From Dictyostelium discoideum (lineage: Eukaryota), in NCBI GenBank assembly GCA_000004695.1, contig CM000150.2:4064001-4128000 (forward strand): a stretch of DNA of 64,000 bases, in the 5' to 3' direction. The notes under the pieces were generated by a model, which was not told where the DNA came from, searched no databases, and saw only the letters and a list, made by a program, of their open reading frames with translations. Below, one piece after another: positions 37,501 through 61,298 of the stretch. The number at the start of each line of letters is the position of its first letter. The stretch's first letter is position 1. Position numbers and translations under genes: made by a program.

Positions 37501-38857
37501 TAAATTTTTTCCATCATCATATTATGTCAATATAAACTACCTTGTTGATGAAGAACCAATTATTACATCGACTGATAATATTTTTTCAACTGGTGGTAAT
37601 TTATTAATTTATGGTAAATCATTATCAAATACAAAACAAGTATCAATTTATTATTCTGAAACCAATGTACAAAGTACAATAGTTCAAGATGAAATATATG
37701 GATCAAGTGCAGTTTTAATCAATTCAATTTCGGAAACATCAAAACCATTTAAAATTCAAATAATTACAACTTCTGGTTTAAAATCAAATGAATATTGGGT
37801 AACTCCAATTTATTTTGAAACAACAACCCCAGTAATTCCAACTAATCCACCACAAAAATGTAGTGGTAATCCAGAATGTGGCGGTAAATCACAAGGTTAC
37901 TGTTCACCAAATGGTTGTATTTGTTTTTCACCTTGGATTGGTACAAGCTGTCAATCAAAAGTTATAGTTGTACCACCACCAATTGTAAATCCAAATGAAC
38001 CATCAACTAATATTATAACCAATTCAAGCAAAAGTGAAACATCATCGTTAGTTGGTGTAATTTCAATTGTTTCATTAAGAGAATTAGATCATAACAATAA
38101 AGTTATTAAAATTTTTAAATTTGAAAAATGGAATCAAACAAATTTAGAAAAGAATAAAAATATCTATTCAACAAGCATTAAATTTCAAGATAATAATAGT
38201 AATAACGATTGTTTTATAAATGTTGAAACTGAATGGTATGAAACATTAAGAAATATAACATTTGCAAATCAATTATTAGTAATGAATCCCTCAACATTAA
38301 AATATAATATAAACATTACAGCATATCCATTCCAATCGAAATTAAATACACTCCAATTAGTAATCAGAGCAAAACTAACTCAAAATGATTATAATGATGA
38401 TATATGCTCAAATCAAGAATTTGGTAAAACAGTTGCAGATAATTCAGATTTTATTCAATTATCAGTAAAAGATCATTCGTTATATGGTAGATTTGTTAAA
38501 AGAGGTATCGTAGATGGTAGAATTACATCAATTGGTAATGTTAAACTTAATGATTTAGATGATGAATCAAATTATTATACATCAGATTCATTCGTTGGTA
38601 TTGTAATTCCACAATACACAAATCTAATTCAACTAGATCCTGATTTTGGTTTATTGGTAGATAGTTCACCAACTGATTCAACATGTAAAAAAAGTGCATC
38701 ACTTTCAAAAGAAGCAAAGATTGGTATAATCGTAGGTTGTATTGGTTTTGTAATTGTTGTTGTAATAGTTGTAACTTTATGTGTAAAATATAAATATCAT
38801 ATTAGAAATTTAAAATCTGTTATTAAAATGAATCAAATCAAAGCGAATAAAAATTAA
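34007..38857 (+). CDS. Seven-exon gene, about 1399 aa: type I membrane glycoprotein with signal peptide, large extracellular region, EGF-like module (CSGNPECGGKSQGYCSPNGCICFSPWIGTSCQ), a single transmembrane segment (IGIIVGCIGFVIVVVIVVTLCV) and a short basic tail
   Basis: join(34007..34436, 34638..34922, 35005..35307, 35396..35719, 35875..36237, 36279..36635, 36720..38857). The donors are GTAATA, GTAAAA, GTACGT, GTAAGT, GTATAT and GTATGT, and the acceptors are all (T)nAG. All six introns are phase 1, and the frames of the ORF-track pieces are reproduced across every junction. Confidence 0.7.
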
Positions 38858-39220: not shown

Positions 39221-40786
39221 ATGGATAGTAATAGTAATAATAATAATAATATTAATAATGATATTAAACCAAATGAAAAATTGTTTTTTTCAGTATGGAG
39301 AAATATTTTTTTAAAAAATAATATATTTGTTCAATTAAATTTATTAAAAAGTTATAAAAAAGTTTCTATACAAACTTTGGAAAATTTAAAAAATCAAAAA
39401 TATAAAAAATATATTGAAAAGATTGTTTATTATAGCGATGATAATATATTAGACGAAAATATTTTATTAGAATTCGATATTTTAAAAACTATTAAATTTA
39501 TGCATCAAGGGTTTGAATTGATTTCTCCATCAGTTTTACCAATTGGTTTAAAAAAGTTAATATTCCCAATAAAGAGTAACTCTTTAATTCATAATTTTAA
39601 AGATAATGAAACATGTAGTTTTTCATTGTTCCCAAGTTCAGTTACTGATGTTAGAAATGTTTATGCAAAGGATCCAATTATTTCAATTCCTTCAAATATT
39701 AAAAGAATTCATTTTAGGAGTATTTCTCAAAATGCATTGAATAAAAGTGATTTTAATAGTGGTGGTTTTGGTGGTGTTGGTGGAAATTCAATAACAGAAC
39801 TTGGATTTTATATTGATGAAAGTACAATTAAATTAAATTTTGGTATGATTCCATTTGGATTAATAAAAAGATTACATATGGAAACAATGTCATTAGATTT
39901 TAATAAATTACCAATATCATTAACACACTTGAAATTAGATATTAGAATGGAGATTGTAATAAATAATGTTTTGTATTTTTCATTTGGTAAACTTAAAAAA
40001 CTTGAATTAATTTCAAAAAATAAAATTGAAATTCATAATAATATGTTTCCTGAATCTCTCACTCATTTAAAAATGGGGTCACCATCTATAAGATTAGGTC
40101 AAAAATCACTACCATCAGGTTTATTATTTTTAATGGTTACAGATACTATCCAAGGTATGAATAATAATAATTGGTTACCCCTATCATTGAAAACATTAAT
40201 TGTAAAAGGCCATCCTAAAAGTGGTTGGTATGGTTACCAATTTAGTTCATTGATAATTCAACATGTTAATTTACCACCAAAACTTGTACATCTACAATTT
40301 GATGACAAAGGTTTTGGATATGGTGATAATCAAATACTTACACCTGGTTGCATCCCACGATCATTAACCTATTTAAATTTTGGTTCAAATTTTAATCAAG
40401 AAATTTACAAAGATGCACTTCCAAATTTAGTTGAAATCAATTTTGGTTCAAGATTTAATAGATATTTAGATCCAGGTGTACTTCCAATAAATTCATTGAA
40501 AAAATTAACTTTATCAACTGATTTCAATAAGAAACTTGAGATTGGTTCATTACCAGATTCAATAACTCATTTAACATTTGGTTATAATTATAATCAACCA
40601 ATAATATCATTACCATCCTCATTAACTTGCTTAGAATTAAATTGTCCAAATTATTCTCATAAAATTGATACTTCAAATTTATTCCCACCTTGTCTATCAA
40701 AATTAGTTTTATCAAAAAATTTTAAACAAAATGATTTAATTTCAAGAGATTGTTTTTATTCTATTGATAAAGTTTTAATTGAATAA
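39221..40786 (+). CDS. FNIP repeat-containing protein, 521 aa
   Basis: Repeated units of the form LPxSLTxLxFGxxFNQxI (for example LTYLNFGSNFNQEIYKDALPNLVEINFGSRFNRYLDPGVLPINSLKKLTLSTDFNKKLEIGSLPDSITHLTFGYNYNQPI), characteristic of the Dictyostelium FNIP repeat family. Confidence 0.8.
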   Translation: MDSNSNNNNNINNDIKPNEKLFFSVWRNIFLKNNIFVQLNLLKSYKKVSIQTLENLKNQKYKKYIEKIVYYSDDNILDENILLEFDILKTIKFMHQGFELISPSVLPIGLKKLIFPIKSNSLIHNFKDNETCSFSLFPSSVTDVRNVYAKDPIISIPSNIKRIHFRSISQNALNKSDFNSGGFGGVGGNSITELGFYIDESTIKLNFGMIPFGLIKRLHMETMSLDFNKLPISLTHLKLDIRMEIVINNVLYFSFGKLKKLELISKNKIEIHNNMFPESLTHLKMGSPSIRLGQKSLPSGLLFLMVTDTIQGMNNNNWLPLSLKTLIVKGHPKSGWYGYQFSSLIIQHVNLPPKLVHLQFDDKGFGYGDNQILTPGCIPRSLTYLNFGSNFNQEIYKDALPNLVEINFGSRFNRYLDPGVLPINSLKKLTLSTDFNKKLEIGSLPDSITHLTFGYNYNQPIISLPSSLTCLELNCPNYSHKIDTSNLFPPCLSKLVLSKNFKQNDLISRDCFYSIDKVLIE

Positions 40787-42976: not shown

Positions 42977-45690
42977 TTAATTAACCCAATCCAAATCATA
43001 TTTATATAATTTATTATTAGATAAAGATATTTTAAGGTGGTTTAATAAAATTGGATCGTTTTTAATGCTATTGATTTTGTTACTATTGTCATTATAAAAA
43101 TATTTTAGAATATGAATATTATTGTTTTTGATTGCATGAGTGATTGAGTAATTTGTAATTTTAAATTGATTTGGATAATAAGAGATAACCAAGTTACATA
43201 AATGAGTAATACCTAAAACAAATGCACTTATAAATATATTATTATTATCATTAATATACTGATTTTTTAGTTCTTCTTCATCGTCCTGTTGTTGTTGTTG
43301 AAGAGTATCTTCTTGAAAAATTATTTTAAATAAATTTTGATATTCACTTTGATTAAAAAGTTTTGATAATACATTAGACTGAACCTTTGATTTTTCAATA
43401 CTAATTAATTCATGTTCTTTAGTAGGATTATCAATTTCATCTATTTCAAATTGATGTAATAAATAATTATAAGTTTCTTTTAAAATTAATTTTTTAATAT
43501 CAGATGGTGTTGAAGGATTAATTAATTTTTTATAATTATCTTGATTTTTAATCTTTAAGAAATGCGATTGTAAGAATTCTAAAAATCTAACTTCAAATAG
43601 TTTTTTTGATTGATTAAAAACCATTGATTGAAATTTAAAAGGCTTTTTTACTCTTTCGAAATAATTCTCTAAAAAGAATTTTGATTCTAAATAACTATCA
43701 CAACTATTAACTAATTGAGGTGTTGAAGTAATAGTATTTAAAGATGAAATGGTGATTTCATAATTCTCTAAGATAAATTTAGAAATTTCAAAATTATTTT
43801 TAAATATTGATTCATCAAAAATTGCAGAATGAAATGCTGATTGGTAAAAATTAAATTCTATAAATCTTTGAATTTCATCTGTGTTCATTATTTTACAAGA
43901 TAAACTTATTACTTTTGGAGAGAAATCAAAAGAGTTTATTAAAACAACGGGTTTAATAAATAGATCTTCTTGTTGTTTGATTTTAGTTGTTGTTAAAGGT
44001 TGTTCAGTTGGAGGCATTAAAGGTAACTTTCTAATAGATTCATCTCTTAACTTACTTGCTGATAATAGTGAAAATGCTGGTACTTGATATAAATAAGTTT
44101 TCAAAGGGAATGTTGAACCTATTGGTACTTTTTCACGTAGACAATCAATGTGATCTTGAATGATTTCAAATTGATCAAAGAATAAATCTACTCTTTTAAT
44201 TAATAATAAATACTCTAATGTTAAATTCATAAATTCATGAAATTCATCAAGATAATGTGGGTATTCAATTATATTGATATAATTTAAAAATAATTGTGAA
44301 ATTAACATTTCAATAATTTTATCGAATGAATTGATATAATCACCACTACCACCATTATTATTTTTACCAAATATAAAATCAAATGTAAATTTATCAGATT
44401 CAAAATAATCAATAATGTCATAAACAGTTGGATCAATTTGATACTCGATTGAACAATTATAATATCTTTCTTTTGATTTTGAAAAAGGTTCAGTTATTCT
44501 TGGTATTGATAAAATGAATTTTATAAATTTGGTATCTCTAATTTGTAGGTAATAGAATGAATGATATAAAGTGTGTTTAATTGGTACTGAATTACTTTGA
44601 AATAGTGTATTAATTTCTATAATTTGTTCTTTTGTTACTTTCTTTGATTGAATTAATTTTTCAAAAATAAATTTAATTATAAGAATCAATGATTCAAATG
44701 ATTCGATTGGAATTGATTTTAATCGTTCAATTAATTTTATAATTATTGAATGTAATTCCTTTGCATTTGATTTTTCATCATGATAAATCGTTGTACTAAA
44801 AATATATCTTGGTGAATCATAAAATCTATCACCTTCACTATCACTAAAAGATATTACTTTATTTGAGTTGAATTGATTGGTAGTTTCCTCTTTTTTCTTA
44901 TCAAAAATTGTACTATTTATTATTAATTCAAAAATTGGTAAATCTAATGATAAAGTTGATTCTATTAATAGATTTTTTATAATATCAACTTCCATATTTT
45001 CAATATTTAATTTAATATCTGAATAAATTTTTGAATTTTTGATTTGATTAATAATTTCATTTTGAAATAATTTAAATGAACTTTTTGAAAAGTTTTTAAA
45101 ACCAATTTCATTAAAATATTCAATTAATTCTAATACTTTTGTTTCTGTTGTAGTTTTAGTTTCTGTTGTTGTTATTATTATTGTTTCTGTTGTTGCTGTA
45201 CTTGAAATTAATTTTTCACCATCTTCTTCAAATATTACTCCTAAAGAATTTAAATATTTCAAATTATCAATATTAAAATTGATTACTGAATTATACCAAA
45301 TGAAATTATATATGAGTTTCTTTAATTTCCCTGCACAACCACTACTACTGCCACTGCCATTGCTACTGCTGCCACTGCTACTGCTACTAGAATTTAATTT
45401 CGATTCACATAGATTTAAAAAGTATGATAATAATTCTACAGATTCAAATCTAAATGATAATATATTTTTTTTTTCAATTAAAAATGATTGAACAATCCAT
45501 TTATCATTATTTTCAGAAATCCAATCTAAAATTGATTTTTCTTTAATTATAATAATATCATTATCCTTTTTTTTTAAAATCTCAAATAAAATTGGATTCC
45601 ATTTACAATTCTCTAAATCTATTGGAAGTTGAGTTTTTAAACTACCATTCTCTTTTAATTCTAAAATTCTAAAAAATTCAATAAATTCAC

Positions 45691-45750
<60 letters not shown>

Positions 45751-46189
45751 CATTATTATCATTGTTGTGTAGTTCTTTGATTGTTTTTTTATATTTTAGT
45801 GTGTATTCTAAATAAAAGTCAATTATTTGTTTATAAATAATTTCATCAGTTTTATTTGATTTTTGAGAACCTTTTGAAGATAATGATTTTTTTATTATTG
45901 TTTTTATAAATAATTTTTGTAGTTTTTTAATTGACTTCTCATTGTTATTATTTTTATCATTATCGTAATTAAAAATTATTTTATCATTATCATTATCTAT
46001 ACAATAATTATTATATATTTTTAATACTAATAGAAGTTCACCGATTGTGCTATTTATTGAAAGGTCTGGTAGTTTTCCATTTTCTTTTAAAACTATATCT
46101 AAATCAATTAATTTATTCCTTAATTCTATATCTTTAAATAATAAAAACATTGAGTACCCAATTTTAGTTATATCAATTTCAATAATTTC

Positions 46190-46281
<92 letters not shown>

Positions 46282-46313
46282 TTGATTTAAATCTCTTTAA
46301 AGGCTGTTCCTCT

Positions 46314-46376
<63 letters not shown>

Positions 46377-47104
46377 TTAAAATCAAAAACTGAAAATAAG
46401 GAAATTAGTTGGTTTTCAGTAAATTCATTAATTTTAGATTTTAATGCCAAGTTGATTGAATTCTTTTTTATTCTTTGAATTTCCATATTATAGATAATAT
46501 TGTTTTTATCACTGTTGGTGTTGATGAGTTTTAATAAGATTTGAAGGATTTGTGGATCAGAATAAGTTGATATTGCATATTCTAAAGCTGATGGGTTAAC
46601 TTTTAAAGAGTATTCTTGATTTCCTAATATTTCCAATGCATCAACACAATTACATTTGGTAGCTACATGTATTAAATCTACGATTTCAAATTCTATTCTT
46701 TTATTTTTTAATAATAATATTAAAATCTCTTTTAATATACCATTGTTATTATTATTAGTTGTTGTTGATGCTGTTGTTGTGGTTATTGTTGTTGTTGATG
46801 TAGTATTAACGAATTCAATTCTTGATTTTGACAATGCTGAAAAAAATGTAGTGATTGAATTTTTACTAATTTTAATATAATCATTGGATTCCAATTTACA
46901 CTTTATTAATTGATAAAGGTTCTTTTTAATCATCCAATCTAAAGAATGAATATCTTTAAATTTTTTACGATTTTCTGGGTGAATGTTTTGTGGATCATCA
47001 TATTCAATCCATTCTAAACAATGAATTTGTTTAAAAATTAAACTAAGCAAATATTTATTATGAAATATTTGCCAAAATAATCCTTCAATATAATTATCAC
47101 CCAT
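42977..47104 (-). CDS. Large hypothetical protein (1375 aa), paralogue A of a tandem pair. It has ankyrin-like N- and C-terminal segments with poly-Asn, poly-Ser and poly-Thr inserts
   Basis: Single ORF. The N-terminus (FWQIFHNKYLLSLIFKQIHCLEWIEYDDPQNIH...KFKDIHSLDWMIKKNLYQLIKCKL) and C-terminus (YYPNQFKITNYSITHAIKNNNIHILKYFY...YDLDWVN) are clearly homologous to the ORF at 48718..53547. Confidence 0.7.
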
Positions 47105-48139
47105 ATTGTGATCAAAAAAAAAAAAAAAAAAAAAAAAACCAAAAAAAAAAAAAAAAAAAAACCACTCAAAATTTTTCTTTTTTTTCCTTTTTTTTCTTTT
47201 TTTTTTTTTTTTTTGATATGATATTCATATAATATGTTATATTTAATAATTTAAATTACATTTTAAATTACATTTTAATAGATAAAATTTAATATTAAAT
47301 TACCATGATTTTTAAGTAATTCAGCAAAATTATATTTTAAGTATTATATCGAGCGATTAACCCTATTTTTTGAGCGTAATATGATATTTCAAGCGTTTAT
47401 CTATTATTTTATATGTTTATCATTGATTATAAAGCATATTTCACTTGCTAATGATATTTATTAATTTTGTTAAAATTAATATGGGAAAAAATCTTGGAAA
47501 AATTTTTTTTTTTTTTTTTGAATTAATTTTTAATTTTTTAATTTATTTTACTTATTTTTAATTATTTTTAATTTTTTTTTTTTTGAATTTAATTTAAAAA
47601 CACTCAATGGTTAACAGTTTTATACTAATATCAGCTATTTTTAAATAAATTAAAGGGGTTAGTTATTATTTTCTTTTAAACAAAATTAATATTTAAAATC
47701 AAAAAAAAAAGGAAAAATGGAAAAAAGTTTTTTTTTTTTTCAAGGACTTATTTACAATTTTTTCATCACCAAAAAAAAAATAATCAAAAAATAAAAAAAA
47801 AAAACAATTTTTGTGGCTTTCACCAAAAAAAAACAATAAACAAATAAAAAAAATCATTGATTATAATAAAATTATTATTAAAATATTTTATTATTTATTT
47901 TCATCTTTTATTGCTCCTTATAGGATATTACTCAACAATATAAATATGTTATATAATAAAAAAATAAATAAATTTTTTTGATTTTTTTTTTTTTTTAAAC
48001 ATAAGACGTTTTTTGAAAATGAAAAAAAAAAAAATTTTTTTTCAAATCTGTCAAAAAAAAAAAAAAACAAAATAAAATAAAATAAAAGAGGATAACCAGA
48101 ACAAAAAGAAGATGGACTAAAAATCAAAAGAAGATTCTG

Positions 48140-48205
48140 GTGATGAAAGTGGTGGAGAAAAAAGTTGTAGTAAAGAAATCTAAAACACCAAACACATCAC
48201 CATCG

Positions 48206-48257
<52 letters not shown>

Positions 48258-48469
48258 CCAATGACAAATCATTTAATCTTTCAGATAAAAGAAAAATTTC
48301 ATATAGTAACTTTAAAGGTTTAGAACGTATTGATATCCGTGAATTTTTTGAAGATAAGTCTGGTGAATTAAAACCAAGTTCAAAAGGTATTTCATTAACA
48401 AGAGAACAACTTGTGGTTATATTAGAAAATGGTGATACAATTAAAGATTGGATAAAAGAAAGTAAATAA
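48140..48469 (+). CDS. Transcriptional coactivator PC4 / Sub1 (p15) homologue, 109 aa
   Basis: N-terminal Lys-rich segment and poly-Ser, then a ssDNA-binding PC4 domain: FNLSDKRKISYSNFKGLERIDIREFFEDKSGELKPSSKGISLTREQLVVILENGDTIKDWI. Confidence 0.75.
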
Positions 48470-48717
48470 ACGATTTTCTTTAACAAATTACCACGATTTT
48501 GAAACAATTTATTAAATTTTAATCTTTTATGATAATAATTGGCAAAAAAAAGAATATAGATGATTTAGAACAAGTGGAAACATAATAATAATAAAAAAGA
48601 AAAGTTAATTAATATAAAATTTGCCTTATAAAAATTCTCGCGTTTAACAAAATGCCACAATTTGTTGTGTATTATTATAATTTTTTTTTTTTTTTTTTTA
48701 TGTTTATTACATTAATA

Positions 48718-51700
48718 TTAATTTAACCAATTTAAATCAAATTTATAATTATAATGATTGTTTAGTTCTTTTTTTAAATGATCCACTAAATCCTTGTTAC
48801 TTGAAATGAAGAAAGAGGAAGAATTTTCAAATCTATTATTATTATCAAGAATATGGTTTGGTAATATTGATATTATTTGACTCTTATTATAATTATTATT
48901 ATTATTATTATTATTAATATTATTATTAATATTATTATTTTTATAATAATATTTTAAAATATGAATATTATCTTTGTTGATAGCTTGAGTGATAGCATAA
49001 GTTGTTATTTTAAATTGATTTGGATAATATTTTAAAAATAGATTACACATTTGAATATTTCCTTTTATAAAGTATTTAATAAAAATATTATCATTTTGAT
49101 TTCTGTATTCTTTATCTGCATTTTCTTCATCATTATTAAATAACAATTGACCAAATAAAATTTTTAAACTATCTTGAATCTCTGATTGTTTATAAATTTG
49201 ATTTAATTTTCTATAATCTATATTTACAATTTCTTCTTGCTCTTCTTCATCATCATCTTCATCCACATCATCTTCTTCTACTTCATCTTCTTCATCTTCT
49301 TCATCATCTTCTTCTTCTTCTTCTTCATCTTCTTCTTCTTCATCTTCATCTTCTTCCTGTTCTTTCTGTTGTTTCTGTTCTTGTTGCTGTTCTTGCTGTT
49401 GCTGTTGTTGATGATTATGTTGTTGTTGTTTTTTTTGTTGATTTAATAAAATTAAAACCAATTCTTCTAATAATTGTTTTCTTTGAATTAAAGTTAAATT
49501 TTGATTTATAAATTCTCTATATTTATTTTCATTCTTTTGAAAATAATTATTTAATAATTCAAAGAATCTAAAAGTGAACAATTTCATTTCAAATTTATTT
49601 TTATCAAATTTGAATCTAATTGGATATTTAACTTTTTCAAAATAATTTTCAAGTAAAAACTTTGTTTCTAAATAATGGTCACGATTTAATTTTGGTGATT
49701 GGATTTGTTTACTTTGAATATCATCTTCATTATTATTATCATCATCATCATCGTCTGTAGCTGTTGTTGTCGTAGTAATTGGATCTAGTTGTGGTTGTGT
49801 AATTGATGATGATGTTGTTGTTGATGATGATGATGGTGGTACTGGTATTATTACCATTTTATTTAAATCATTCATTTCAATTTCATAATTATTTAAAATG
49901 AATTTTGAAATTTCAAAACAACCACTCAGAATTGAACAAAAGTAAACAATTTTTTGAAATGGAGTTTGATAGAAATTGAATTCAATTAACCTTTGAATAT
50001 TATCAACATCCATTAATCTACAAGCCAATTTAAGAACACTTGCAGAGAATTTGAATGAGTTTACCAAGAATTGTGGTTTAAAAGATTTCATTAAAGAGAT
50101 CATTGCATGATTAGTTGGTGGTGTTGTAGTTGCCTCTGTTGAAGAATTTAAATCTTGAGTTGTCATCCAATTTGAAGATAACATTGGTTTCGATAAAGGA
50201 ATCATTGGAAACTGTTTAGCATTACCACCACCAGCAGTGGTTTCATAGAGTTTACTAGTTAATAGAATGGTTGAAGCTGGTGATTTATGAATTGGTGTTG
50301 TGTGTGGAAATAATTCATTTTGATCGAAATGACCACTTTGATTCTCTTTATTTAAATAAACTTGAATGAATTGTAATTGTTTGAAAAATAAATCAATATT
50401 TTTAATCTCTAAACAATATTGTAAATAAACATTCATTAAAACTTGTAATACAATTCTATAAATACCACGTTTCTCTTCGAATAATATAATATAATTATGA
50501 ACTAATTGATATATAATTTTTTCAATTATATCATTTAATGAATTTGAAAATTCAAAATTATTATTATTATAATTATCTTTTAAAGTACGACCTAAAATAT
50601 AATTATAAGTGAATACATTTGTATCTAAATAATCCTTAATATCCGGTATACCATCGCCACCACCACCGCCACCAATATTACCAACACCAGAATTTGTGCC
50701 ATATTCAGTTGAACAATTATAATAATTTGAATAATCAGATTGAATAATAATTGAAATGAATGGATTTGTAAGTATACATTTTGATAATTTTGTTGACCTA
50801 ATTTGAAGATAATAGAATGAATGAAATAATGTATGATTTATTGAAATTGAAAGTTGATTTATTAATTTAAAATAAATCTTTTCAACCAAATCAATTGAGA
50901 TACCTTTAATTTGAATTAACTTTTCAAAGTAGTAATTGAAAATTTCATTATACGCTTGTTTAACTGATTTATTATTTGAAGCAACTAAATTGGATTGTCT
51001 ATATTTACAAACCAACTTTTCAATGATATCTATTATGGTATTACTATTGACTTTATTGATTTTATTTGTACAACCACCTATTCTATTCGCAATGAATTGA
51101 TCATAATGAAAGATGTTACGATCCTTATCGAAAATGTATCTACATTGTTTTAATCTACTGAATTCGAAATAATCATTTGCGAAAATCTGTTGTTCTACCA
51201 TATCATTATTTATCAATAATAAATGAATCATTACAATATCAGAGAACAACATTGACTCTATTAAAAAGAAGAATAAAGAATCTTTATTCATCAATGATAA
51301 ATCCAATCTTAATTCCAATACTTGATTAATTGGTATTGATTTCATTACAATCTCTTTAATAAATAATTCCAATGAATTATATGAAAAACATGAAAATCCA
51401 TATGAATTATAAAATTCAATAATTTTAATAATTGATTCTTCATTTAAAATTATATTACCACTATTCTCTTCACTACAACCACAGTTACCATCACTTGAAT
51501 TACTAATACCAATATTATTATTATTCTGATCTTGAATGAAATCATTTAAATGAAAAAATTGAATTTTTAAATTTATTGGTGATGAAATTAGTATCTTTAA
51601 ATTTTGAATATCACAATTCTTTATAGCCTCAACCCATGTATTTTTGTATATTTGTGCTCTAATTGAATTCAAACCAGCCATTTCAAATAGACTTGGTAAA

Positions 51701-52485
51701 ATTGTATCCTTTTCAGTATAAATCGCTAATTCCAATGACTGAATTTCAAATTTATTAAAACTATATACATTCTCACCAAGTATTATTTTCTTTAACCATG
51801 GCAATTTAATATTTGTAATCCAATCAATTGTCTCTCTATCTCTTATAATTATCTTCTCCTTAATAAATCCATTACCATCTACACCAATACTAATTAAATC
51901 AATTAAAATTGGATTCCAAATTAATTGATTCTCTTTAATTTCTTTAATAATTCTTTGGAATATATCTTTAAATGATAAATTATTACAATCACTACAACCA
52001 TTATTATTATTATTATTATTATTATAATCAACGATTTCACAATTTGTTTGAGTTGTTGTAAATTTAATAAATTGATGAAACACTTTTAAGTATCTAAAAA
52101 AATTAATAAATTCAATTTGATAATTATAATTAATTTGTTCTATAATTTGATTCTTATAAATTGATTCTAATTCAATCTCATTTATTAATTCTCTATATTT
52201 ATATATATATTCTTTATAGTATCTATTACTATTTGATTCAATTATTATTAATTTTTGTAATTCTTTTTCTTCATTTATTTCTTGTAATTTATTATTATCA
52301 CAATTATTATTATTATATTTTCTTATTATCACTAATAAATATTTCAATTCTTCAATTGATAATTTAATAAATGATTCTTCATCTTCTAAAAAATCAATAT
52401 TTGTTTTAATAACTAAATTTAATTCCATTAATTTACATTTAGTTTTTAAACATTTTAATGATTTAAATGTTTTAAAATCAATAAA

Positions 52486-52584
<99 letters not shown>

Positions 52585-52633
52585 ATTATTATTATTACTA
52601 TATCTAATTCTTTTTTGTGGTGGTTCTTCATTA

Positions 52634-52710
<77 letters not shown>

Positions 52711-53162
52711 GTTATTATTATTATTGTTATTATTACTATTATTATTATCTGGTAATATTAATACTTTATTATTATTATTATTATTTTTATTTTGAAAATT
52801 TAAACTATTAATTATATAATAAATCATTTCTTCTTTAAAATTATTATTTTTTAATGCAAATGAGAATGATTTAGTTTGTATAATTTCATCAATTATTAAA
52901 TTGAATTCTTTATATGTTTTATTAAAAGTTGATATTAAATATGAAACTATTGTTGGGTTTGAATTTAAAATTGCAAATTCAAAAGTTGATGGATAAACTA
53001 TAATAGAGTAAGGATCATTGGTAAGAATTTCCAATACACAAATACAATTACATTTCACTGCTAAAAATGTTAAATCTGTAATTTCAACTTCTGTTCTCTT
53101 CTTTTCTAATAACAAATGGATAATTTCTTTTAATATTTCTAAAGAAGAAGAGGATGAGGATG

Positions 53163-53260
<98 letters not shown>

Positions 53261-53547
53261 GAATTTATTGATAAATTTGAAATCGTTGTAAATAATATAT
53301 CTATTGAATCTTTATCAATTTGTATATAATCATTATTTGATTGTAATTTACATTTTATTAATGAAAATAACTTTTTATTTATCATCCAACTTAATGAGTG
53401 AATATCTTTAAACTTTAATCTATTATCTGCATGAATTTGTTTTGGGTCATCGTATTCTACCCATTCTGTATTTTGAATATGTTTTATAATACAACGTAAT
53501 AAAAATTTATTATGAAAAACTTTCCAAAAGAAATCTTCATTATTCAT
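48718..53547 (-). CDS. Large hypothetical protein (1609 aa), paralogue B of the tandem pair, with additional poly-Ser, poly-Asn and acidic E/D-rich inserts
   Basis: Single ORF. It is homologous end to end with 42977..47104, for example FFWKVFHNKFLLRCIIKHIQNTEWVEYDDPKQIH, NIQRLIEFNFYQTPF, YYPNQFKITTYAITQAINKDNIHILKYYY and FDLNWLN. Confidence 0.7.
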
Positions 53548-54930: not shown

Positions 54931-55164
54931 TTGATTAAAACATCTTTTTTGTCCAAACTTTTTTCTAAATCTTTTTTTATTTTATCGTCTGGTTCGTGAT
55001 TGATGTTTATGACGTATTTGAATTGTTTTTTTTTTTTTTTAATTGAGTTTTATCCACAATTTCGCTTATTTTTTGTAGGCATTTGTGTTGCTTAATATTT
55101 GTGGTGTTGTTTGTGATTTTCATTTTATTTTCTTTCTATCTTTTTTATTTTTCTGATTAACTTG

Positions 55165-55170
<6 letters not shown>
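54931..55170. repeat. 3' copy of the TRE5 B-module, including the first ~65 codons of ORF1; direct repeat of 59801..60060
   Basis: About 230 bp is nearly identical between 54931..55170 and 59801..60060. Each copy abuts a T-run. The 5' copy has a roughly 30-bp insertion before aattaacttgggtt. Confidence 0.85.
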
Positions 55171-55219
<49 letters not shown>

Positions 55220-55223
<4 letters not shown>

Positions 55224-58200
55224 TTATAGAAAGTACTGAGTGAATTATTGTTTTTTTTGAGATGTTTAGGAAGTTCTATTGCGTGAAGAGGTGAGTTCCA
55301 TTGTCTGCTAAATTGTAATAGCTTTAGCGAGATTAGTGAGTCTAATTTATTTTGTTCTTCTGGCCGTTGCTTTGATTTGATTCTTAATGTTTTGTTTATA
55401 ACCGCTTGTGTCCTGTCCCATGCAGCTCTTTGTGTTTTAATTAGTTCACGTATGACTTGTTGTCTGTGAATTATTATTTCTTTTTCATCGTGAATGAGTT
55501 TATTTCTTTTGTGCCAGATTTTATCGAATATAATAGCTATTAAATTGGCTACTAGTGCAATTTGTAGATGGTTTAAAATCTTCACATTCCAGGTGTGAGT
55601 GGTGTGTCCACACTTAGTTAGGGTGTAGTTGAAGATTTCTTGTGTGTTTTTGATGTGGGCTTTGCAGTTGAAGAATATATGTTCTGAGGTCTCATCTTCC
55701 CCACACTGTTGGCATGGCATGTTGTATATTTTTGGTAGTGCTTTCAGTGTGTATCTCCATAATAGATCTCTACCTTTCATGTTTATTATTTTTTTGATTT
55801 CTTTAAATGGAAGGTGTTTGCTATTAATTTTGGTCATTATTTCTTTTTGGCCAGGAGTTGGTATGAATTTGTTGTGTTCAGGAGATTGAGTTGTCATCAT
55901 ATCTTCGTATATTTTTTTTAATTTTGGGAGGTGTTCGTAGTGTGTTTGTTTATTTTGTGGAGTTTTTAATTGGGTCCATGCTTGCTTGCATTGCCAGTGT
56001 AGTTGTAGTTGATTTTGTTTTGTTGTTGTTTTGTTGTTGTTGTTGTTTTTGAGTTCCTCTTCCCACAGTTTTATATATGAACTAGGAGTGTTACTTACTC
56101 TTTGGTGGAGGTATCTTTCGAATAACCATGCTTTCTGTGCTAGTTCTCTTGTCTTCAGGTTCCATAAGTTTAGGCCACCATTGATATAGTTGTTTTGTCT
56201 TCTTTGTAGTGAAAGAGAGTTTTTAGATTTTGTGTTGAAAACGAATTTTACGATGTTATTTTCAATACTATTGTGTTGTGGTGTGGTGTTGATGTAAGTG
56301 TGGAACGTTAACTGAGATAGTGCATATGTTTTTGCCATTATGAGTCTGCCCATATAGGTTGATGAAGTTGAGTTCCATGTTACTAGTTTAGCTCTGATGT
56401 TGTCTGAGATTGTATTGATTTTGGATTTGATACCCTTATTGTTGAAGTCAAAGCCGAGGTACCTTTCGTTTGATTTTATGACGGTGTATAGCGTTCTGGT
56501 GTTCCATTTGAAAGTGATACACGAGCATTTGGTTTGGTTTATTTTTGCGCTGGTTGCTTGGCAAAACTTCTTGATCCATTCATTCATGAGGAAATGGTCC
56601 ATAAAGTTGTATGCTATTGTTGCTGTATCATCGGCGAACTGTAGTATTTTAATGGTTTCTTTGGTTACACCATTGATGCAGCGGTCATTTATTATAGTAG
56701 TTGCCATGCATTCAACCACTAATGCGAAGATAGTGGGAGAGATAGGATCACCTTGTTTGGTTCCTCTTTTTGATGTAAAGCTTTTAGATAATGAGTTATT
56801 GATGTACACTGATGTTTCTGATTCATTGAGTAAGTTCATTATTGTGAGGACCATTTTGAGTGGTAGTTTTAGATGTGCAAGAGTACGTAGAATGGCGTTA
56901 TGTGAGATTGAATCGAATGCTTTTTCAAAATCATAAAATGTTATGATTGGTTCCATATCCTCTTTTGTGTTAATCTCTCGTTTTATTATTTCTATTGTTG
57001 AGTTTAAGGTGATGATGTTATCGTGCAGTAGTCTTCTTGGTACGAATCCAGTTTGGAATGGTGAGATTATTTTGTTTAAGAACTTCAGGATCCTATTGTT
57101 GATTATTTTCGAATAGATTTTGTAATCGACATTTAGAAGTGTTATTGGTCTATAATTATCCAGGTTGTTTGGGTCTCCTTTGTTTTTATATATAGTAATC
57201 AATATCCCTTGTTTGAAGTCCTTTGGGATTGTTGTGTTCCAGAAGTGATTGTATAGTTTTGATATTATTGGTAGAATTTCATTAATGTGGTTTTTGTAAA
57301 ATGTTGGAAGGAGTCCATCTTTACCAGGTGCTTTTCCTTCTTGTATTTTTTCAATGCCTAGTCTGATTTCATATCCTTCTATTGGTTGATTAATTTCGTC
57401 CAATATCTTTTGATCAATCCTTTTATTGAATGTTTTTAGGAGTTCGTGGTGAGTGTCTTCGTTGCATTCTCTCTTCTGGTACAGGTTCTCGTAATATCTT
57501 CTTGCTACTTCGAGGATATCCTCGTGTTTTGTTACCAAACAATTGTTGCTTGGATCTAGAATTTGAGGGATTTCATTTGTCTTTCTTTGGACTTTTAACC
57601 TTCTGGTTAAGTATTTTGATGGTGTTTCTTTGTTGTTGATGTGGGTGTTGGTTTGGTTTGCTTGTTTTATTCTTACTTGTTCCTTTAGAATATTGTTGAT
57701 CTCTTCTTTAAGGAAGATTGCTCTTGAATCTTTGGCTGTTTCGAGTTTTTCTGCGAGTTCTTTTAGTTTGTTTTTGGTTTTATTGCTTTCTCTAATTTCT
57801 ATATTAATTGACAGTTTCTTTATTTCATCTTTTAGTTTCAACCATTGTTCGCAAATGTTTAATTTGTACCATTTGCTGGTGTTCTCTTCGAATTTTTTAT
57901 TGTAGTATTTAATTGTTTTATTAATTTTGAGGCTGGTTGAATTCATTTTGAGAGTTTCTAGGTTTTGTCTCCATAGTCTTTCTCCTTTCTTTTGTTGCTC
58001 GTATTCTGGTATTTTTAATTCAATGATTACCATGTTGTGATCAGATTTTAATTTGATTTCCTTAGTAGTAACTATTGGGTTTAGATGGAGTATCTTCTTT
58101 GAGACAAAGACCCTATCGATGGTTGATTTGTTTCTTGGAAATGTGATTCCATTCTTAATTTCTGTAAATTCGAATTCGTCGAAGATTGTTTTAATATATT

Positions 58201-58441
58201 TGTTAAGGTTATTATCCACTGAACAGTCTACATTGAAGTCTCCAGTTATAATATCGCTGTGTAGTATTTCTTCTGTGAGATTTTCCTTATACCATTCATG
58301 TCTTTCGTTTGACTTTGCTGGGGCATAAATGGTTGTGCATTTGATCTGTGTTTTTGCAATCATCCATTCGGAAGATATAATTCTTTCGTTTATTGTTTTT
58401 GTTGTTGTTTTTATTTGGGTGTTGATGATGATTTGTGACAC
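55220..58441 (-). CDS. Retrotransposon ORF2: APE-type endonuclease, reverse transcriptase and zinc-finger domain (1073 aa from the first Met)
   Basis: It has endonuclease motifs (GDFNVD, SDHNMV), RT motifs (YRPITLLNVDYKIYSKIINNRI, FDFEKAFDSISH, QGDPISPTIFAL, LQFADDTA) and a CQQCGEDETSEHIFFNCKAH finger. The frame may be open upstream of the Met, towards ORF1. Confidence 0.85.
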
Positions 58442-58653
58442 CCCTTGTCCTGTTTTATCAATTGGTGCGTGGTGTGTTATTTTGTTTTTATATTGTTGAT
58501 TTATTGAGTAAATTTTATTTGTTTTTATATTTGTTTCAGTTAGAAGTGCTGCGTCCAGCTTGTTGTTGTCTAAAACGGTGTTTATTATGCTGGCAGATTG
58601 GATGGTGTTGGATCCTTGGACGTTCCAAACACCTATTCTTATTGTGTTTTTCT

Positions 58654-59988
58654 TTATAGTTTTATTTGGGGTAGATTTTTATCTACCTTTTGAAGTTTCT
58701 GGTTTATTTTGTCTTCTAACTGATCTTTACTTTGTTCGTTGTGTTGTTGGTCTTGTGTGTTTGTGGGGTTTTTTGATTTATTGATTTGTTTTAGAATTTC
58801 CTTGTTGAAGTTGTCTATATCTTCATCCATTTTTGTTTTTATGCTTTTTTGTCCATATTCACCCAATTTTGGTTTGACTGGTGTTTTGTTGGTCTTGTTT
58901 GTTTTGTCTTGTTGTTTCTTTTTTGGTGTGTTTAACAATTTACTTGGTGAATCGATAATTTTCGATGGTGTACCATAGGTTGGGCTGAAACTCATGATAT
59001 GTTTTATTGGAGAGGAGAAGAACCATTGATTTGAAGGGATTGAAAGTGGGAATTCTATTTTTCTTATTGCATCAGTGTTTGGGCTGGTGAAGTCGAAGAT
59101 ATCATTTGCCTCTCTAAGTTTTTCTTCCGTTGTTAGTCCCTTTGTTTCGCCGTGTTGTTTTATTGGTGTATTGTATGGAGATGGTGGTTCGATAGGTTTT
59201 TCTGATTTTGTTTTAATTTCTTGATTGTTTATCGATTGTGTATTGATCTCATTCTCTATTCTTGTTAGTTCATCTACGTTTTCTAGTGATGCTTCTATTA
59301 CCTTTTGAGCTGTATCATCTAGGGCCATAAATGTTTTATCATTAGATGAGGATGTGATTGGTGGGATAATGATTGTTCTTTTTCCTTGTTTTGGTATTTG
59401 TTCTGATGTAAATTGTGGTTGTTGTTCATCTGATTGTTTTTTATTTTTGTTTTCTTCTTGATTTTCTGGTAATGAGGTTTGATCTCTCCATCCTTTGTTG
59501 GAGTGTCCAATTAATGTTAAATTGTCTAGTTCAATGATAGTGTCAAATTCTTCTACGACTCTTTTCACTGTTTTGATAATTAGAGTTTCGCCTTTAATTT
59601 CTGATTTAATTAGTTTACATCCTTCATTTTCTATTACCCATTCTATTTCTGTGAGTGATTTATACCAATCAAAATCTGTATACATATTTTTTGGTCTTAT
59701 AGTGGTTATAAATTGTCCTTTTAATTCTGCATCAAACATATTTACAAAATAGATTACTGTACTAATACTGTCTGTGAGAATTTTGAATGTATTATTACTT
59801 TTGATTAAAACATCTTTTTTGTCCAAACTTTTTTCTAAATCTTTTTTTATTTTATCGTCTGGTTCGTGATTGATGTTTATGACGTATTTGAATTGTTTTT
59901 TTTTTAATTGAGTTTTATCCACAATTTCGCTTATTTTTTGTAGGCATTTGTGTTGCTTAATATTTGTGGTGTTGTTTGTGATTTTCAT
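58654..59988 (-). CDS. Retrotransposon ORF1 (444 aa), basic and K/Q-rich
   Basis: ORF immediately 5' of ORF2 on the same strand. Its ATG lies inside the B-module. Confidence 0.75.
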   Translation of the reverse strand: MKITNNTTNIKQHKCLQKISEIVDKTQLKKKQFKYVININHEPDDKIKKDLEKSLDKKDVLIKSNNTFKILTDSISTVIYFVNMFDAELKGQFITTIRPKNMYTDFDWYKSLTEIEWVIENEGCKLIKSEIKGETLIIKTVKRVVEEFDTIIELDNLTLIGHSNKGWRDQTSLPENQEENKNKKQSDEQQPQFTSEQIPKQGKRTIIIPPITSSSNDKTFMALDDTAQKVIEASLENVDELTRIENEINTQSINNQEIKTKSEKPIEPPSPYNTPIKQHGETKGLTTEEKLREANDIFDFTSPNTDAIRKIEFPLSIPSNQWFFSSPIKHIMSFSPTYGTPSKIIDSPSKLLNTPKKKQQDKTNKTNKTPVKPKLGEYGQKSIKTKMDEDIDNFNKEILKQINKSKNPTNTQDQQHNEQSKDQLEDKINQKLQKVDKNLPQIKL

Positions 59989-60064
59989 TTTATTTTCTTT
60001 CTATCTTTTTTATTTTTCTTTAAAAAGTTAAAAATCTGGAAATTTTCTAATTAACTTGGGTTCC

Positions 60065-60107
<43 letters not shown>

Positions 60108-60110
<3 letters not shown>

Positions 60111-61175
60111 TCTTTTTTATATGAAAAATGAAATAATCAAAAAAAGAGATTGTTGTTGTTGTTTGTTTTTTTCGATCTGATTATTTTTTGCTTTTTTTTT
60201 GAAAATTTTGCTACGCAAAATTCTCAAAACGAAACAAATAATAAATTACAATAAAGTAAAAAGATGGCTTTTTAAAATAGTTTATTTATTTATTTATTTG
60301 TTTTTTAAGTCTTTTTTATATGAAAAATGAAATAATCAAAAAAAGAGATTGTTGTTGTTGTTTGTTTTTTTCGATCTGATTATTTTTTGCTTTTTTTTTG
60401 AAAATTTTGCTACGCAAAATTCTCAAAACGAAACAAATAATAAATTACAATAAAGTAAAAAGATGGCTTTTTAAAATAGTTTATTTATTTATTTATTTGT
60501 TTTTTAAGTCTTTTTTATATGAAAAATGAAATAATCAAAAAAAGAGATTGTTGTTGTTGTTTGTTTTTTTCGATCTGATTATTTTTTGCTTTTTTTTTGA
60601 AAATTTTGCTACGCAAAATTCTCAAAACGAAACAAATAATAAATTACAATAAAGTAAAAAGATGGCTTTTTAAAATAGTTTATTTATTTATTTATTTGTT
60701 TTTTAAGTCTTTTTTATATGAAAAATGAAATAATCAAAAAAAGAGATTGTTGTTGTTGTTTGTTTTTTTCGATCTGATTATTTTTTGCTTTTTTTTTGAA
60801 AATTTTGCTACGCAAAATTCTCAAAACGAAACAAATAATAAATTACAATAAAGTAAAAAGATGGCTTTTTAAAATAGTTTATTTATTTATTTATTTGTTT
60901 TTTAAGTCTTTTTTATATGAAAAATGAAATAATCAAAAAAAGAGATTGTTGTTGTTGTTTGTTTTTTTCGATCTGATTATTTTTTGCTTTTTTTTTGAAA
61001 ATTTTGCTACGCAAAATTCTCAAAACGAAACAAATAATAAATTACAATAAAGTAAAAAGATGGCTTTTTAAAATAGTTTATTTATTTATTTATTTGTTTT
61101 TTAAGTCTTTTTTATATGAAAAATGAAATAATCAAAAAAAGAGATTGTTGTTGTTGTTTGTTTTTTTCGATCTGA
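60108..61175. repeat. Tandem array of 199-bp units (5 full units plus a 73-bp partial), the A-modules of the retrotransposon 5' UTR
   Basis: Unit starts (aagtcttttttatatgaaaaatg...) are at 60108, 60307, 60506, 60705, 60904 and 61103. The period is exactly 199 bp and the copies are near-identical. The last copy is truncated at tctga (61175). Confidence 0.9.
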
Positions 61176-61225: not shown

Positions 61226-61298
61226 GCTCGATTAGCTCAGTCGGCAGAGCGTGGTGCTAATAACGCCACGGTCGCAGGTTCGATCCCTGCATCGAGCA
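61226..61298 (+). tRNA. tRNA-Ile (anticodon AAT), 73 nt
   Basis: GCTCGAT TA GCTC AGTCGGC AGAGC G TGGTG CTAATAA CGCCA CGGTC GCAGG TTCGATC CCTGC ATCGAGC A. The acceptor stem is 7 bp (GCTCGAT/ATCGAGC). The D-arm carries the A box (TAGCTCAGTCGG). The anticodon stem is 5 bp with loop CTAATAA, giving anticodon AAT. The T-arm is GCAGG/CCTGC with the B box GGTTCGATCC. Confidence 0.9.

What the first reader, a model, noticed from the sequence alone, without database searches (positions are those of the whole stretch)
42977..53547. Tandem pair of very large, rapidly diverging paralogous genes flanking a PC4/Sub1 coactivator gene
Two same-strand single-exon ORFs of 1375 and 1609 aa share a conserved N-terminus (FW.IFHNK.LL...EW.EYDDP..IH...KFKDIHSL.WMI), ankyrin-like blocks, a conserved central region (IQRLIEFNFYQ) and the C-terminus (YYPNQFKIT.Y.IT.AI...NIHILKY.Y...DL.W.N). 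They differ by large lineage-specific insertions of poly-Asn, poly-Ser, poly-Thr and acidic E/D tracts. The family looks amoeba-specific, and I recognise no catalytic domain. A conserved PC4-type ssDNA-binding coactivator gene is embedded in the opposite orientation between the two copies. The duplication and simple-sequence expansion suggest a fast-evolving family of unknown function.
Basis: partly seen in the sequence, partly recalled or inferred. Interest (0 to 1): 0.6.

Follow-up and report, generated by a model that had tools for sequence, protein, structure and literature searches.

The report
Two old ankyrin-like Dictyostelium paralogues

Summary
Window 42977-47104 (-) and 48718-53547 (-) are intact ORFs of 1375 and 1609 aa. 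They are colinear over their full length (39% identity outside homopolymer runs). A PC4/Sub1 gene (48143-48469, +; Pfam PF02229, E 5e-18) lies between them on the other strand.

The window is D. discoideum. A profile search of 1.84 billion protein representatives found 104 relatives. All but two are dictyostelid, and every one I looked up is named hypothetical or uncharacterised. No Pfam domain, PDB sequence match or catalytic domain was found.

"Rapidly diverging" is not shown. Synonymous sites between the copies are saturated and no gene-conversion tract appears. A second strain has an identical copy A, and its copy B differs by one Asn codon.

Most likely these are non-enzymatic protein-binding scaffolds or adaptors. 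They are new, uncharacterised members of a known kind, a lineage-expanded family of degenerate ankyrin/alpha-solenoid proteins. Interest is modest.

The parts
42977..47104 (-). Gene A: intact single-exon ORF of 1375 aa, member of the dictyostelid family
   Evidence: ORF scan. Called as an identical 1375-aa gene in GCA_054883475.1. Family profile score 1489 bits.
46385..47104 (-). Gene A aa 1-240: conserved N-terminal cap (LFWQIFHNKYLL...) plus about 4 degenerate ankyrin-like repeats, interrupted by a T/N-rich loop (aa 99-121)
46175..46387 (-). Gene A aa 240-310: two poly-Asn tracts flanking the conserved EEEQPLKRFKSS segment
   Evidence: Entropy mask. The B counterpart is NEEPPQKRIRYS at the same alignment position.
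46286..46303 (-). Gene A aa 268-273, PLKRFK: a candidate monopartite nuclear localisation signal, conserved in B as PQKRIR
   Evidence: Pattern scan and alignment. The function is inferred, not tested.
42980..46174 (-). Gene A aa 311-1375: large all-alpha body with conserved blocks (HTLYHSFYYLQIR, RVDLFF, IQRFIEFNFYQ, YLESKFFLENYFERVK, YYPNQFKIT...NIHILKYFY, ...DLDWVN)
48143..48469 (+). PC4/Sub1-type gene, 108 aa, with a Lys-rich and poly-Ser N-terminus followed by the PC4 ssDNA-binding domain. It is unrelated to the flanking family.
   Evidence: Pfam PF02229, E 4.9e-18, 64.8 bits. Called as a 108-aa gene in GCA_054883475.1.
48718..53547 (-). Gene B: intact single-exon ORF of 1609 aa, paralogue of A
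   Evidence: ORF scan. Family profile score 1445 bits. The other strain has 1608 aa, one Asn codon fewer.
52798..53547 (-). Gene B aa 1-250: N-terminal cap plus ankyrin-like domain, interrupted by a 46-residue poly-Ser loop
   Evidence: Alignment to A. N-terminal module HMM score 112.5 bits.
49225..49443 (-). Gene B aa 1369-1441: Q-rich then E/D-rich acidic tract, absent from A
   Evidence: Entropy mask and alignment. It produces spurious sub-threshold Pfam hits, such as Rpc31.
47105..48142 (.). Divergent intergenic region between the start of gene A and the start of PC4 (1038 bp, A/T homopolymer-rich)
   Evidence: Sequence read directly.

Best explanation
Genes A and B are two anciently duplicated, still intact tandem paralogues. 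They belong to an unnamed family that is confined to Dictyostelia and expanded in group-4 Dictyostelium. AX4 members include DDB_G0282641 and DDB_G0274845.

Each protein is a large, soluble, non-enzymatic, all-alpha protein. It starts with a conserved two-helix N-terminal cap and about four degenerate ankyrin repeats (aa 1-240). A poly-Asn linker follows, carrying a conserved NLS-like P-x-K-R-x-K/R motif. The remaining roughly 1000 residues form a helical body with no solved counterpart. That body holds at least two more ankyrin-like units, one in the IQRLIEFNFYQ...FEISKFIL region and one at the C-terminus (NIFI..F..G....CNL...YYPN).

Most likely the proteins act as protein-binding scaffolds or adaptors. 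The well conserved termini would dock a common partner or hold the fold. The poorly conserved middle would provide paralogue-specific surfaces.

The poly-N, S, T and E/D tracts are microsatellite-driven insertions in surface loops, as is usual in this genome. PC4 is an unrelated housekeeping-type gene that happens to lie between the copies.

Shown here: paralogy, family distribution, absence of known domains, predicted fold, placement of the tracts in loops, the age of the duplication, and intactness in two strains. Inferred: the binding or scaffold function, nuclear localisation, and neutrality of the tracts.
For: - Paralogy and colinearity.
- Family: 104 representatives at E<=1e-3 and 81 at E<=1e-10 among 1.84 billion. 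Composition and N-termini are dictyostelid. Named species are D. discoideum, D. cf. discoideum, D. dimigraforme, D. purpureum, Tieghemostelium, Cavenderia and Polysphondylium, and every protein is 'hypothetical' or 'uncharacterized'.
- No Pfam domain in A, B or the paralogues. A PDB profile search found nothing at E<=1.
- Distant family members that share only the N-terminal module are bona fide Pfam Ank proteins.
- The family profile matches canonical ankyrin repeats of two mussel proteins nine times each, at profile positions 893-969 and at the C-terminal unit.
- The body model is confident and helical, with only weak, generic or local ankyrin matches.
- There is no conserved hydrophobic segment typical of a membrane span, and the NLS-like motif is conserved.
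- Low-pLDDT segments coincide with the tracts.
- Old duplication: pS 0.56, pN 0.40. The termini are conserved (pN 0.20-0.25) and the middle is not (pN about equal to pS).
- Copy A is identical in a second strain, and copy B differs by one Asn codon.
Against: - No functional data of any kind exist. Neither paralogue ID appears in the searchable literature.
- The Pfam Ank models do not detect A or B. An ankyrin HMM built from a canonical protein scores A and B no better than shuffled sequences.
- A profile self-comparison finds no significant internal repeat.
- The ankyrin call therefore rests on predicted structure and on transitive, weak profile matches.
- About 1000 aa have no structural counterpart, so a new functional domain there, even a catalytic one, is not excluded.
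- The NLS-like motif is short and is not conserved in P0001 to P0003.
Confidence: 0.55

Rival explanations
1. The proteins are substrate adaptors of a ubiquitin ligase. In this reading the highly conserved N-terminal roughly 95-aa module is a cryptic F-box-like or other E3-docking domain. The divergent ankyrin-like or helical remainder would select substrates, as in F-box, SOCS-box (ASB) or FEM1-type ankyrin adaptors.
For: - The N-terminal module is the best conserved part.
- It survives on many otherwise different proteins: canonical ankyrin proteins of Cavenderia and Polysphondylium and, weakly, the neighbouring FNIP/LRR protein (best domain 14.8 bits, E 4.7e-4).
- Megavirus FNIP/FGxxFN proteins are often fused to N-terminal F-boxes (PMC9525666).
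- A small conserved head on variable repeat bodies is the typical adaptor architecture.
Against: - No F-box or F-box-like Pfam hit appears even at E<=10, on the N-terminal 100 aa of A and B or on eight N-terminal fragments of the family.
- In the model, helices 4-29 look like a cap on the ankyrin stack rather than a separate three-helix F-box.
Confidence: 0.12
2. The genes belong to a conflict or recognition family under diversifying selection, for example social cheating, kin discrimination or defence against pathogens. In this reading the divergent middle is positively selected and the gene family turns over quickly.
For: - The family is lineage-restricted and expanded, with about 100 clusters at 50% identity.
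- There are many truncated members and a family fragment beside DDB_G0282641 (L002 9046-9444, E 2e-48).
- In the central third pN is about equal to pS.
- Lineage-specific repeat-protein expansions in amoebae are often discussed in this light (my own knowledge, not tested here).
Against: - Two D. discoideum assemblies have an identical copy A, and their B copies differ only by one Asn codon. That is the opposite of the hyper-polymorphism seen at known recognition loci.
- pN about equal to pS at saturated synonymous sites is not evidence of positive selection.
- The proteins have no signal peptide or membrane span, so they are not surface receptors.
Confidence: 0.13
3. The roughly 1000-aa body hides a new functional domain, enzymatic or nucleic-acid-binding, and the ankyrin part is only an accessory.
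For: - The central blocks (HTL.HSFYYLQIR, YYNCS.EY, FTF.Y..G, R.DLFF) are strongly conserved across the family. Y852 is 93%, L853 90%, and R971, D973, L974 and F975 are 77-88% conserved.
- The confident model has no structural counterpart in the PDB.
Against: - The conserved positions are overwhelmingly aromatic or aliphatic (51 columns at 70% or more, almost all F/Y/L/I). They look like core residues. There is no constellation of invariant polar residues.
- No Pfam or PDB sequence match was found.
- The fold is purely helical and solenoid-like.
Confidence: 0.1
4. One or both ORFs are decaying pseudogenes or annotation artefacts.
For: The exact proteins are absent from the large protein collection, and the search returned no close orthologue.
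Against: - Uninterrupted ORFs of 1375 and 1609 codons exist in about 20% G+C DNA.
- Both are intact in a second assembly, and the only difference is in frame.
- The same gene models are called there.
- Domains are conserved end to end, with pN below pS at both termini.
- The absence from the library is better explained by low-complexity filtering or clustering. Gene A is on record with an identical product in an assembly whose other proteins are in the library.
Confidence: 0.03

Closest known systems
Unnamed dictyostelid family, including D. discoideum AX4 DDB_G0282641 (P0001) and DDB_G0274845 (P0018) and D. purpureum DICPUDRAFT_146599 and 151927
   Same: - Full-length colinear homology: profile scores are 1757 bits for DDB_G0282641 and 1489 and 1445 bits for A and B.
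- They share the N-terminal LFWKVF.NKYL cap, the central blocks and, in the long subtype, the C-terminal ...YPN.FKIT...IHI.K.Y...W.N.
   Different: - A and B are only 33-35% identical to DDB_G0282641 and carry much more simple sequence.
- They are the only tandem pair seen. P0001 and P0003 lie singly on another chromosome-scale contig.
- Many family members stop at about profile position 815-830 and lack the C-terminal third.
Ankyrin-repeat proteins (Pfam clan Ank; e.g. KANK3 6tlh, DARPins, ankyrin-1, IkB)
   Same: - Local ankyrin-like stacks occur in the body.
- Distant relatives with the same N-terminal module are Pfam-positive ankyrin proteins.
   Different: - No Pfam Ank model detects A or B.
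- There is no TPLH/GH consensus, no regular 33-residue periodicity and no significant internal repeat.
- Most of the protein is not a regular ankyrin array.
FNIP/FGxxFN LRR proteins of Dictyostelium and giant viruses (Pfam PF05725; Crov588 and Crov539 structures, PMC9525666)
   Same: - Both are lineage-expanded repeat families of unknown function in the same genomes.
- The neighbouring FNIP gene (window 39221-40786) opens with a similar motif, EKLFFSVWRNIFLKNNIF.
   Different: FNIP proteins are beta/alpha LRR solenoids. A and B are all-alpha and have no FNIP repeat.
PC4/Sub1 transcriptional coactivator (for the middle gene only)
   Same: It has the PC4 ssDNA-binding domain (PF02229, E 4.9e-18) preceded by Lys-rich and Ser-rich segments.
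   Different: It is small (108 aa) and has a poly-Ser run instead of the metazoan SEAC motif. It has no relation to the flanking paralogues.

Membership tests
Dictyostelid DDB_G0282641/DDB_G0274845-like family (unnamed) | Colinear full-length match to the family profile (N-terminal cap, ankyrin-like domain, central blocks, C-terminal unit) | tested here: met
   hmmsearch with the A3 profile scores A at 1489 bits and B at 1445 bits, covering profile positions 1-1182.
Dictyostelid DDB_G0282641/DDB_G0274845-like family (unnamed) | Restriction to Dictyostelia | tested here: met
   Of 104 hits among 1.84 billion representatives, 102 have dictyostelid composition and N-termini. All 18 dictyostelid-type representatives whose source I looked up come from dictyostelid species. 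The 2 exceptions are canonical mussel ankyrin proteins that match only one repeat unit. No relative was found in IMG/VR viral contigs.
Ankyrin repeat (Pfam clan Ank) | Detection by the Pfam Ank, Ank_2, Ank_3, Ank_4 or Ank_5 models | tested here: not met
   No Ank hit for A or B at E<=1, nor for P0001-P0004, P0007 or P0031.
Ankyrin repeat (Pfam clan Ank) | Recurring 33-residue sequence repeat | tested here: not met
   The hhalign self-comparison gives a best off-diagonal E of 0.64. A canonical repeat HMM scores A at -0.1 and B at 0.0 bits, within the range of shuffled sequences.
Ankyrin repeat (Pfam clan Ank) | Stacked helix-turn-helix repeat fold | tested here: met
   [not shown]
Ankyrin repeat (Pfam clan Ank) | Homology link to bona fide ankyrin proteins | tested here: inconclusive
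   The family profile hits the mussel ankyrin proteins P0074 and P0081 (E 1.8e-15 and 2.2e-12, summed over 9 weak stretches of 3-16 bits). The edge members P0098, P0105, P0106 and P0108 are Pfam Ank-positive, but they share only the N-terminal region with A and B.
F-box proteins | F-box motif detectable by Pfam PF00646, PF12937 or related models | tested here: not met
   No hit at E<=10 on 10 N-terminal sequences, and none at E<=1 on full-length A and B.
F-box proteins | Three-helix F-box fold that binds Skp1 | tested here: not met
   [not shown]
PC4/Sub1 (middle gene) | PC4 ssDNA-binding domain above the Pfam gathering score | tested here: met
   PF02229 scores 64.8 bits against a cutoff of 25, covering profile positions 1-51 of 52.
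FNIP/FGxxFN LRR | FNIP repeats (PF05725) | tested here: not met
   No FNIP hit in A or B. The neighbouring gene at 39221-40786 does have them (E 1.9e-38).

The most novel reading that the evidence does not exclude
The conserved roughly 95-aa N-terminal module (LFWKVF.NKYL...I...FKDI.S..WMI....LLK.KL) may be a previously unrecognised, dictyostelid-specific docking domain. It would be shared by several repeat-protein classes: this family, canonical ankyrin proteins and perhaps FNIP/LRR proteins. It would plug them into one common machine, such as a ubiquitin ligase or a nuclear complex. A and B would then be two members of a very large, unrecognised adaptor system. Their roughly 1000-aa bodies would represent a new helical fold.
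Probability: 0.12. Interest if true: 0.55.

Novelty: new member of a known kind. Interest (0 to 1): 0.27.

Why it matters
The result gives a structural label to about 100 clusters of dictyostelid 'hypothetical proteins': an N-terminal ankyrin-type domain followed by a large helical body with no solved counterpart. It also removes the suggestion that this pair is evolving unusually fast. For Dictyostelium biology the family is a candidate set of lineage-specific scaffolds or adaptors that nobody has studied. The conserved N-terminal module, possibly shared with other repeat families, is the one lead that could be of wider interest. Otherwise the locus shows ordinary features of this genome: old tandem duplicates, homopolymer tracts in loops, and a housekeeping gene in between.

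Tried and rejected
- **Word-indexed protein searches, family queries.** These were largely defeated by low complexity. Raw A gave 3 hits. The cleaned 5-sequence profile gave 1 weak hit.
- **Word-indexed protein search, PC4 core.** The 70-aa core, meant to find orthologues for a synteny test, gave only a coral protein. Synteny in other species could therefore not be tested.
- **Exact look-ups.** A, B and PC4 with the GTG start are not in the protein collection. B is not on record anywhere.
- **Canonical ankyrin HMM** built from a mussel protein. It gives no signal in A or B above shuffled sequences.
- **Internal repeat detection** by profile self-alignment. Nothing significant.
- **PDB sequence profile search.** Nothing at E<=1.
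- **afdb50 library.** Unavailable, so the AlphaFold DB entries and UniProt IDs of A and B were not obtained.
- **Viral relatives.** None in IMG/VR.
- **Neighbours of paralogues.** The 1194-aa gene next to P0003 is an RCC1/TBC-type protein, not a family member. The neighbours of P0007 in L004 do not match the profile.
- **Membrane protein idea.** Rejected. The most hydrophobic 19-mers (KD about 2.0) are at non-homologous positions in A and B and lie in predicted packed helices.
- **Literature.** There is no paper with DDB_G0282641 or DDB_G0274845. No Dictyostelium PC4 gene ID was found.


Full report
**Source and observation.** The window has about 20% G+C. It is 99.7% identical to contig JBTAPE010000039.1 of a Dictyostelium discoideum assembly, GCA_054883475.1. 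Gene A is 42977-47104 (-), 1375 aa. Gene B is 48718-53547 (-), 1609 aa. The other assembly's annotation calls single-exon genes of 1375 and 1608 aa at the same places, with a 108-aa gene between them. That middle gene (48143-48469, +) is a PC4/Sub1 gene (Pfam PF02229, 64.8 bits, E 4.9e-18). It has a Lys-rich and poly-Ser N-terminus. Its start is divergent from A's start (1038 bp apart) and its end is convergent with B's end (248 bp apart).

**Paralogy.** BLASTP aligns the N-termini of A and B (E 7e-39, 40% identity) and the C-termini (E 7e-19). Outside homopolymer runs there are 1170 aligned codons with 39% amino-acid identity. The simple-sequence content is 189 residues in A and 338 in B. Several tracts sit at homologous positions: a T/N tract against a poly-S tract near residue 100, and poly-N on both sides of a conserved EE.P.KR..S segment. 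Others are unique, such as the 73-aa Q/E/D tract of B.

**Is the pair diverging fast?** Synonymous differences are saturated (pS 0.56, dS about 1.05), and pN is 0.40. In sliding windows of 60 codons pS never falls below 0.37, so no recent gene-conversion tract is visible. The two ends are constrained (pN 0.20-0.25). The middle third is not distinguishable from neutral at this level of saturation (pN about equal to pS). Between the two assemblies A is identical at every nucleotide. B differs only by one in-frame AAT codon in a poly-Asn run, and PC4 is identical. A and B are each other's nearest full-length relatives (39%). They are only a little closer than the DDB_G0282641 lineage (33-35%). 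This is therefore an old duplication under purifying selection. Its only visible ongoing change is microsatellite length. Homopolymer tracts are a general property of this proteome: nearly 10,000 tracts are longer than 10 aa, with N and Q the commonest (PMC13093961, abstract).

**The family.** Neither A, B nor the paralogues first found has any Pfam domain at E<=1 beyond low-complexity noise. Those paralogues are P0001 (DDB_G0282641), P0002 and P0003. A profile of the five proteins (1182 positions) finds nothing in PDB sequences at E<=1.

The same profile was scored with HMMER against 1.84 billion cluster representatives. It returned 104 proteins at E<=1e-3, 81 at E<=1e-10 and 33 at E<=1e-30. 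Of these, 102 have the N/K/I-rich, A/G-poor composition of dictyostelids, and most begin with LFWKVF.NKYL...IF. The twenty I looked up come from D. discoideum strains, D. cf. discoideum, D. dimigraforme, D. purpureum, Tieghemostelium lacteum, Cavenderia fasciculata and Polysphondylium violaceum, plus two mussel proteins. All are named hypothetical or uncharacterised.

Full-length matches come only from group-4 Dictyostelium. The Cavenderia, Polysphondylium and Tieghemostelium proteins match only the N-terminal 70-260 profile positions. They are Pfam-positive or near-positive ankyrin proteins. Many members end near profile position 815-830, so there is a long subtype (A, B, DDB_G0282641) and a short one.

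The two non-dictyostelid hits are canonical ankyrin proteins of the mussel Potamilus (P0081 has 19 Ank_2 stretches). Their repeats align nine times each to profile positions 893-969 (the IQ.LIEF...F.IS.FLL.NYEI region) and to the C-terminal unit DNIF...F..G.I..C.L..K.YPN. No relative exists in IMG/VR viral contigs. In the window itself only A and B match the profile. Neither AX4 paralogue ID occurs in the searchable literature.

At the sequence level the ankyrin character is not detectable. The Pfam Ank models are silent. An HMM built from canonical repeats scores A and B like shuffled sequences. A profile self-comparison finds no significant repeat; its best off-diagonal pair (E 0.64) is the same two units that align to the mussel repeats.

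**Other features.** No signal peptide is evident. The most hydrophobic 19-mers are at non-homologous positions in A and B and lie in packed helices, so nothing suggests a membrane span. A short basic motif, PLKRFK in A and PQKRIR in B, is conserved between the two poly-Asn tracts and looks like a monopartite NLS. This is an inference only. The columns conserved at 70% or more across the family are almost all aromatic or aliphatic. The few polar exceptions (R971, D973, E1140, N1147) do not form a recognisable catalytic signature.

**Interpretation.** The best-supported reading is that A and B are intact, anciently duplicated members of a dictyostelid-specific, group-4-expanded family of non-enzymatic helical proteins. 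They have an ankyrin-type N-terminal domain and most likely act as protein-binding scaffolds or adaptors. The simple-sequence tracts are loop insertions typical of the genome. PC4 is an unrelated neighbour.

**Caveats.**
- Neither A, B nor anything more than 50% identical to them came back from the exhaustive search or the exact look-up. Yet gene A is called with an identical product in an assembly whose other proteins are in the library. The library probably filters or mis-clusters very low-complexity proteins, so I cannot say whether close orthologues exist in other species.
- I could not test synteny of the A-PC4-B arrangement elsewhere.
- All structural statements rest on predictions.

**Verdict.** The pair is a new, uncharacterised member of a known kind, a lineage-expanded family of degenerate ankyrin/alpha-solenoid proteins. 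Interest is modest.

Noticed in passing
window about 55000-61000 (-), with tRNA-Ile(AAT) at 61226-61298 (+): A non-LTR retrotransposon lies next to a tRNA gene. It has a 444-aa ORF (58654-59988), a 1073-aa reverse-transcriptase ORF (55220-58441, RVT_1 E 2.9e-33) and roughly 199-bp tandem repeats at 60281-60976. The layout resembles TRE5-A (AB-ORF1/ORF2-BC, integrating about 50 bp upstream of tRNA genes; PMC3159450). I did not confirm the element by sequence comparison.
   Followed up: partly
window 55284-58416, compared with L001 position 17121: This 3.1-kb stretch, almost all of the reverse-transcriptase ORF, is absent from the otherwise 99.7% identical assembly GCA_054883475.1. The difference looks like a full-length TRE5-A.1 against the ORF2-deleted, non-autonomous TRE5-A.2 at the same site (PMC3159450). 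It could be a strain polymorphism or an assembly difference.
   Followed up: partly
window 39221-40786 (+): A 521-aa FNIP-repeat protein (PF05725, E 1.9e-38) has the N-terminus EKLFFSVWRNIFLKNNIF. This resembles the N-terminal cap of the family studied here (best domain 14.8 bits, E 4.7e-4). The N-terminal module may be shared between repeat-protein classes.
   Followed up: partly
L002 9046-9444 (+), just upstream of DDB_G0282641 (P0001): A 133-aa ORF matches family profile positions 1057-1159 (E 2e-48). It is a detached C-terminal fragment or pseudogene of the family, lying beside a full-length member.
   Followed up: no
window 36776-38857 (+) and 61800-63359 (+): The neighbouring genes are a ComC-like protein (DUF7035, DUF7034 and the ComC supersandwich domain) and an MFS_1_like transporter (E 2e-126). 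Neither is related to the finding.
   Followed up: no
window 46047-46373 (+), 48124-48507 (-), 53018-53329 (+): Three ORFs of 100-130 aa lie antisense to the poly-N, poly-S and acidic tracts and read as poly-L, poly-D and poly-D/E. They are mechanical by-products of the triplet repeats, not genes.
   Followed up: no
window 48118-48180 (+), frame +2 relative to PC4: Just upstream of, and overlapping, the PC4 start, another frame reads KSKEDSGDESGGEKSCSKEI between two stop codons. This is reminiscent of the Ser/acidic N-terminus of metazoan PC4 (a resemblance from memory). It has no ATG and is probably coincidence, but the 5' end of the PC4 gene model may deserve a check against cDNA.
   Followed up: no
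window 18408-25054 (-): Two further large ORFs (1857 aa and 358 aa, abutting at 23978-23981) lie in a locally G+C-richer stretch (0.33). I did not examine them.
   Followed up: no
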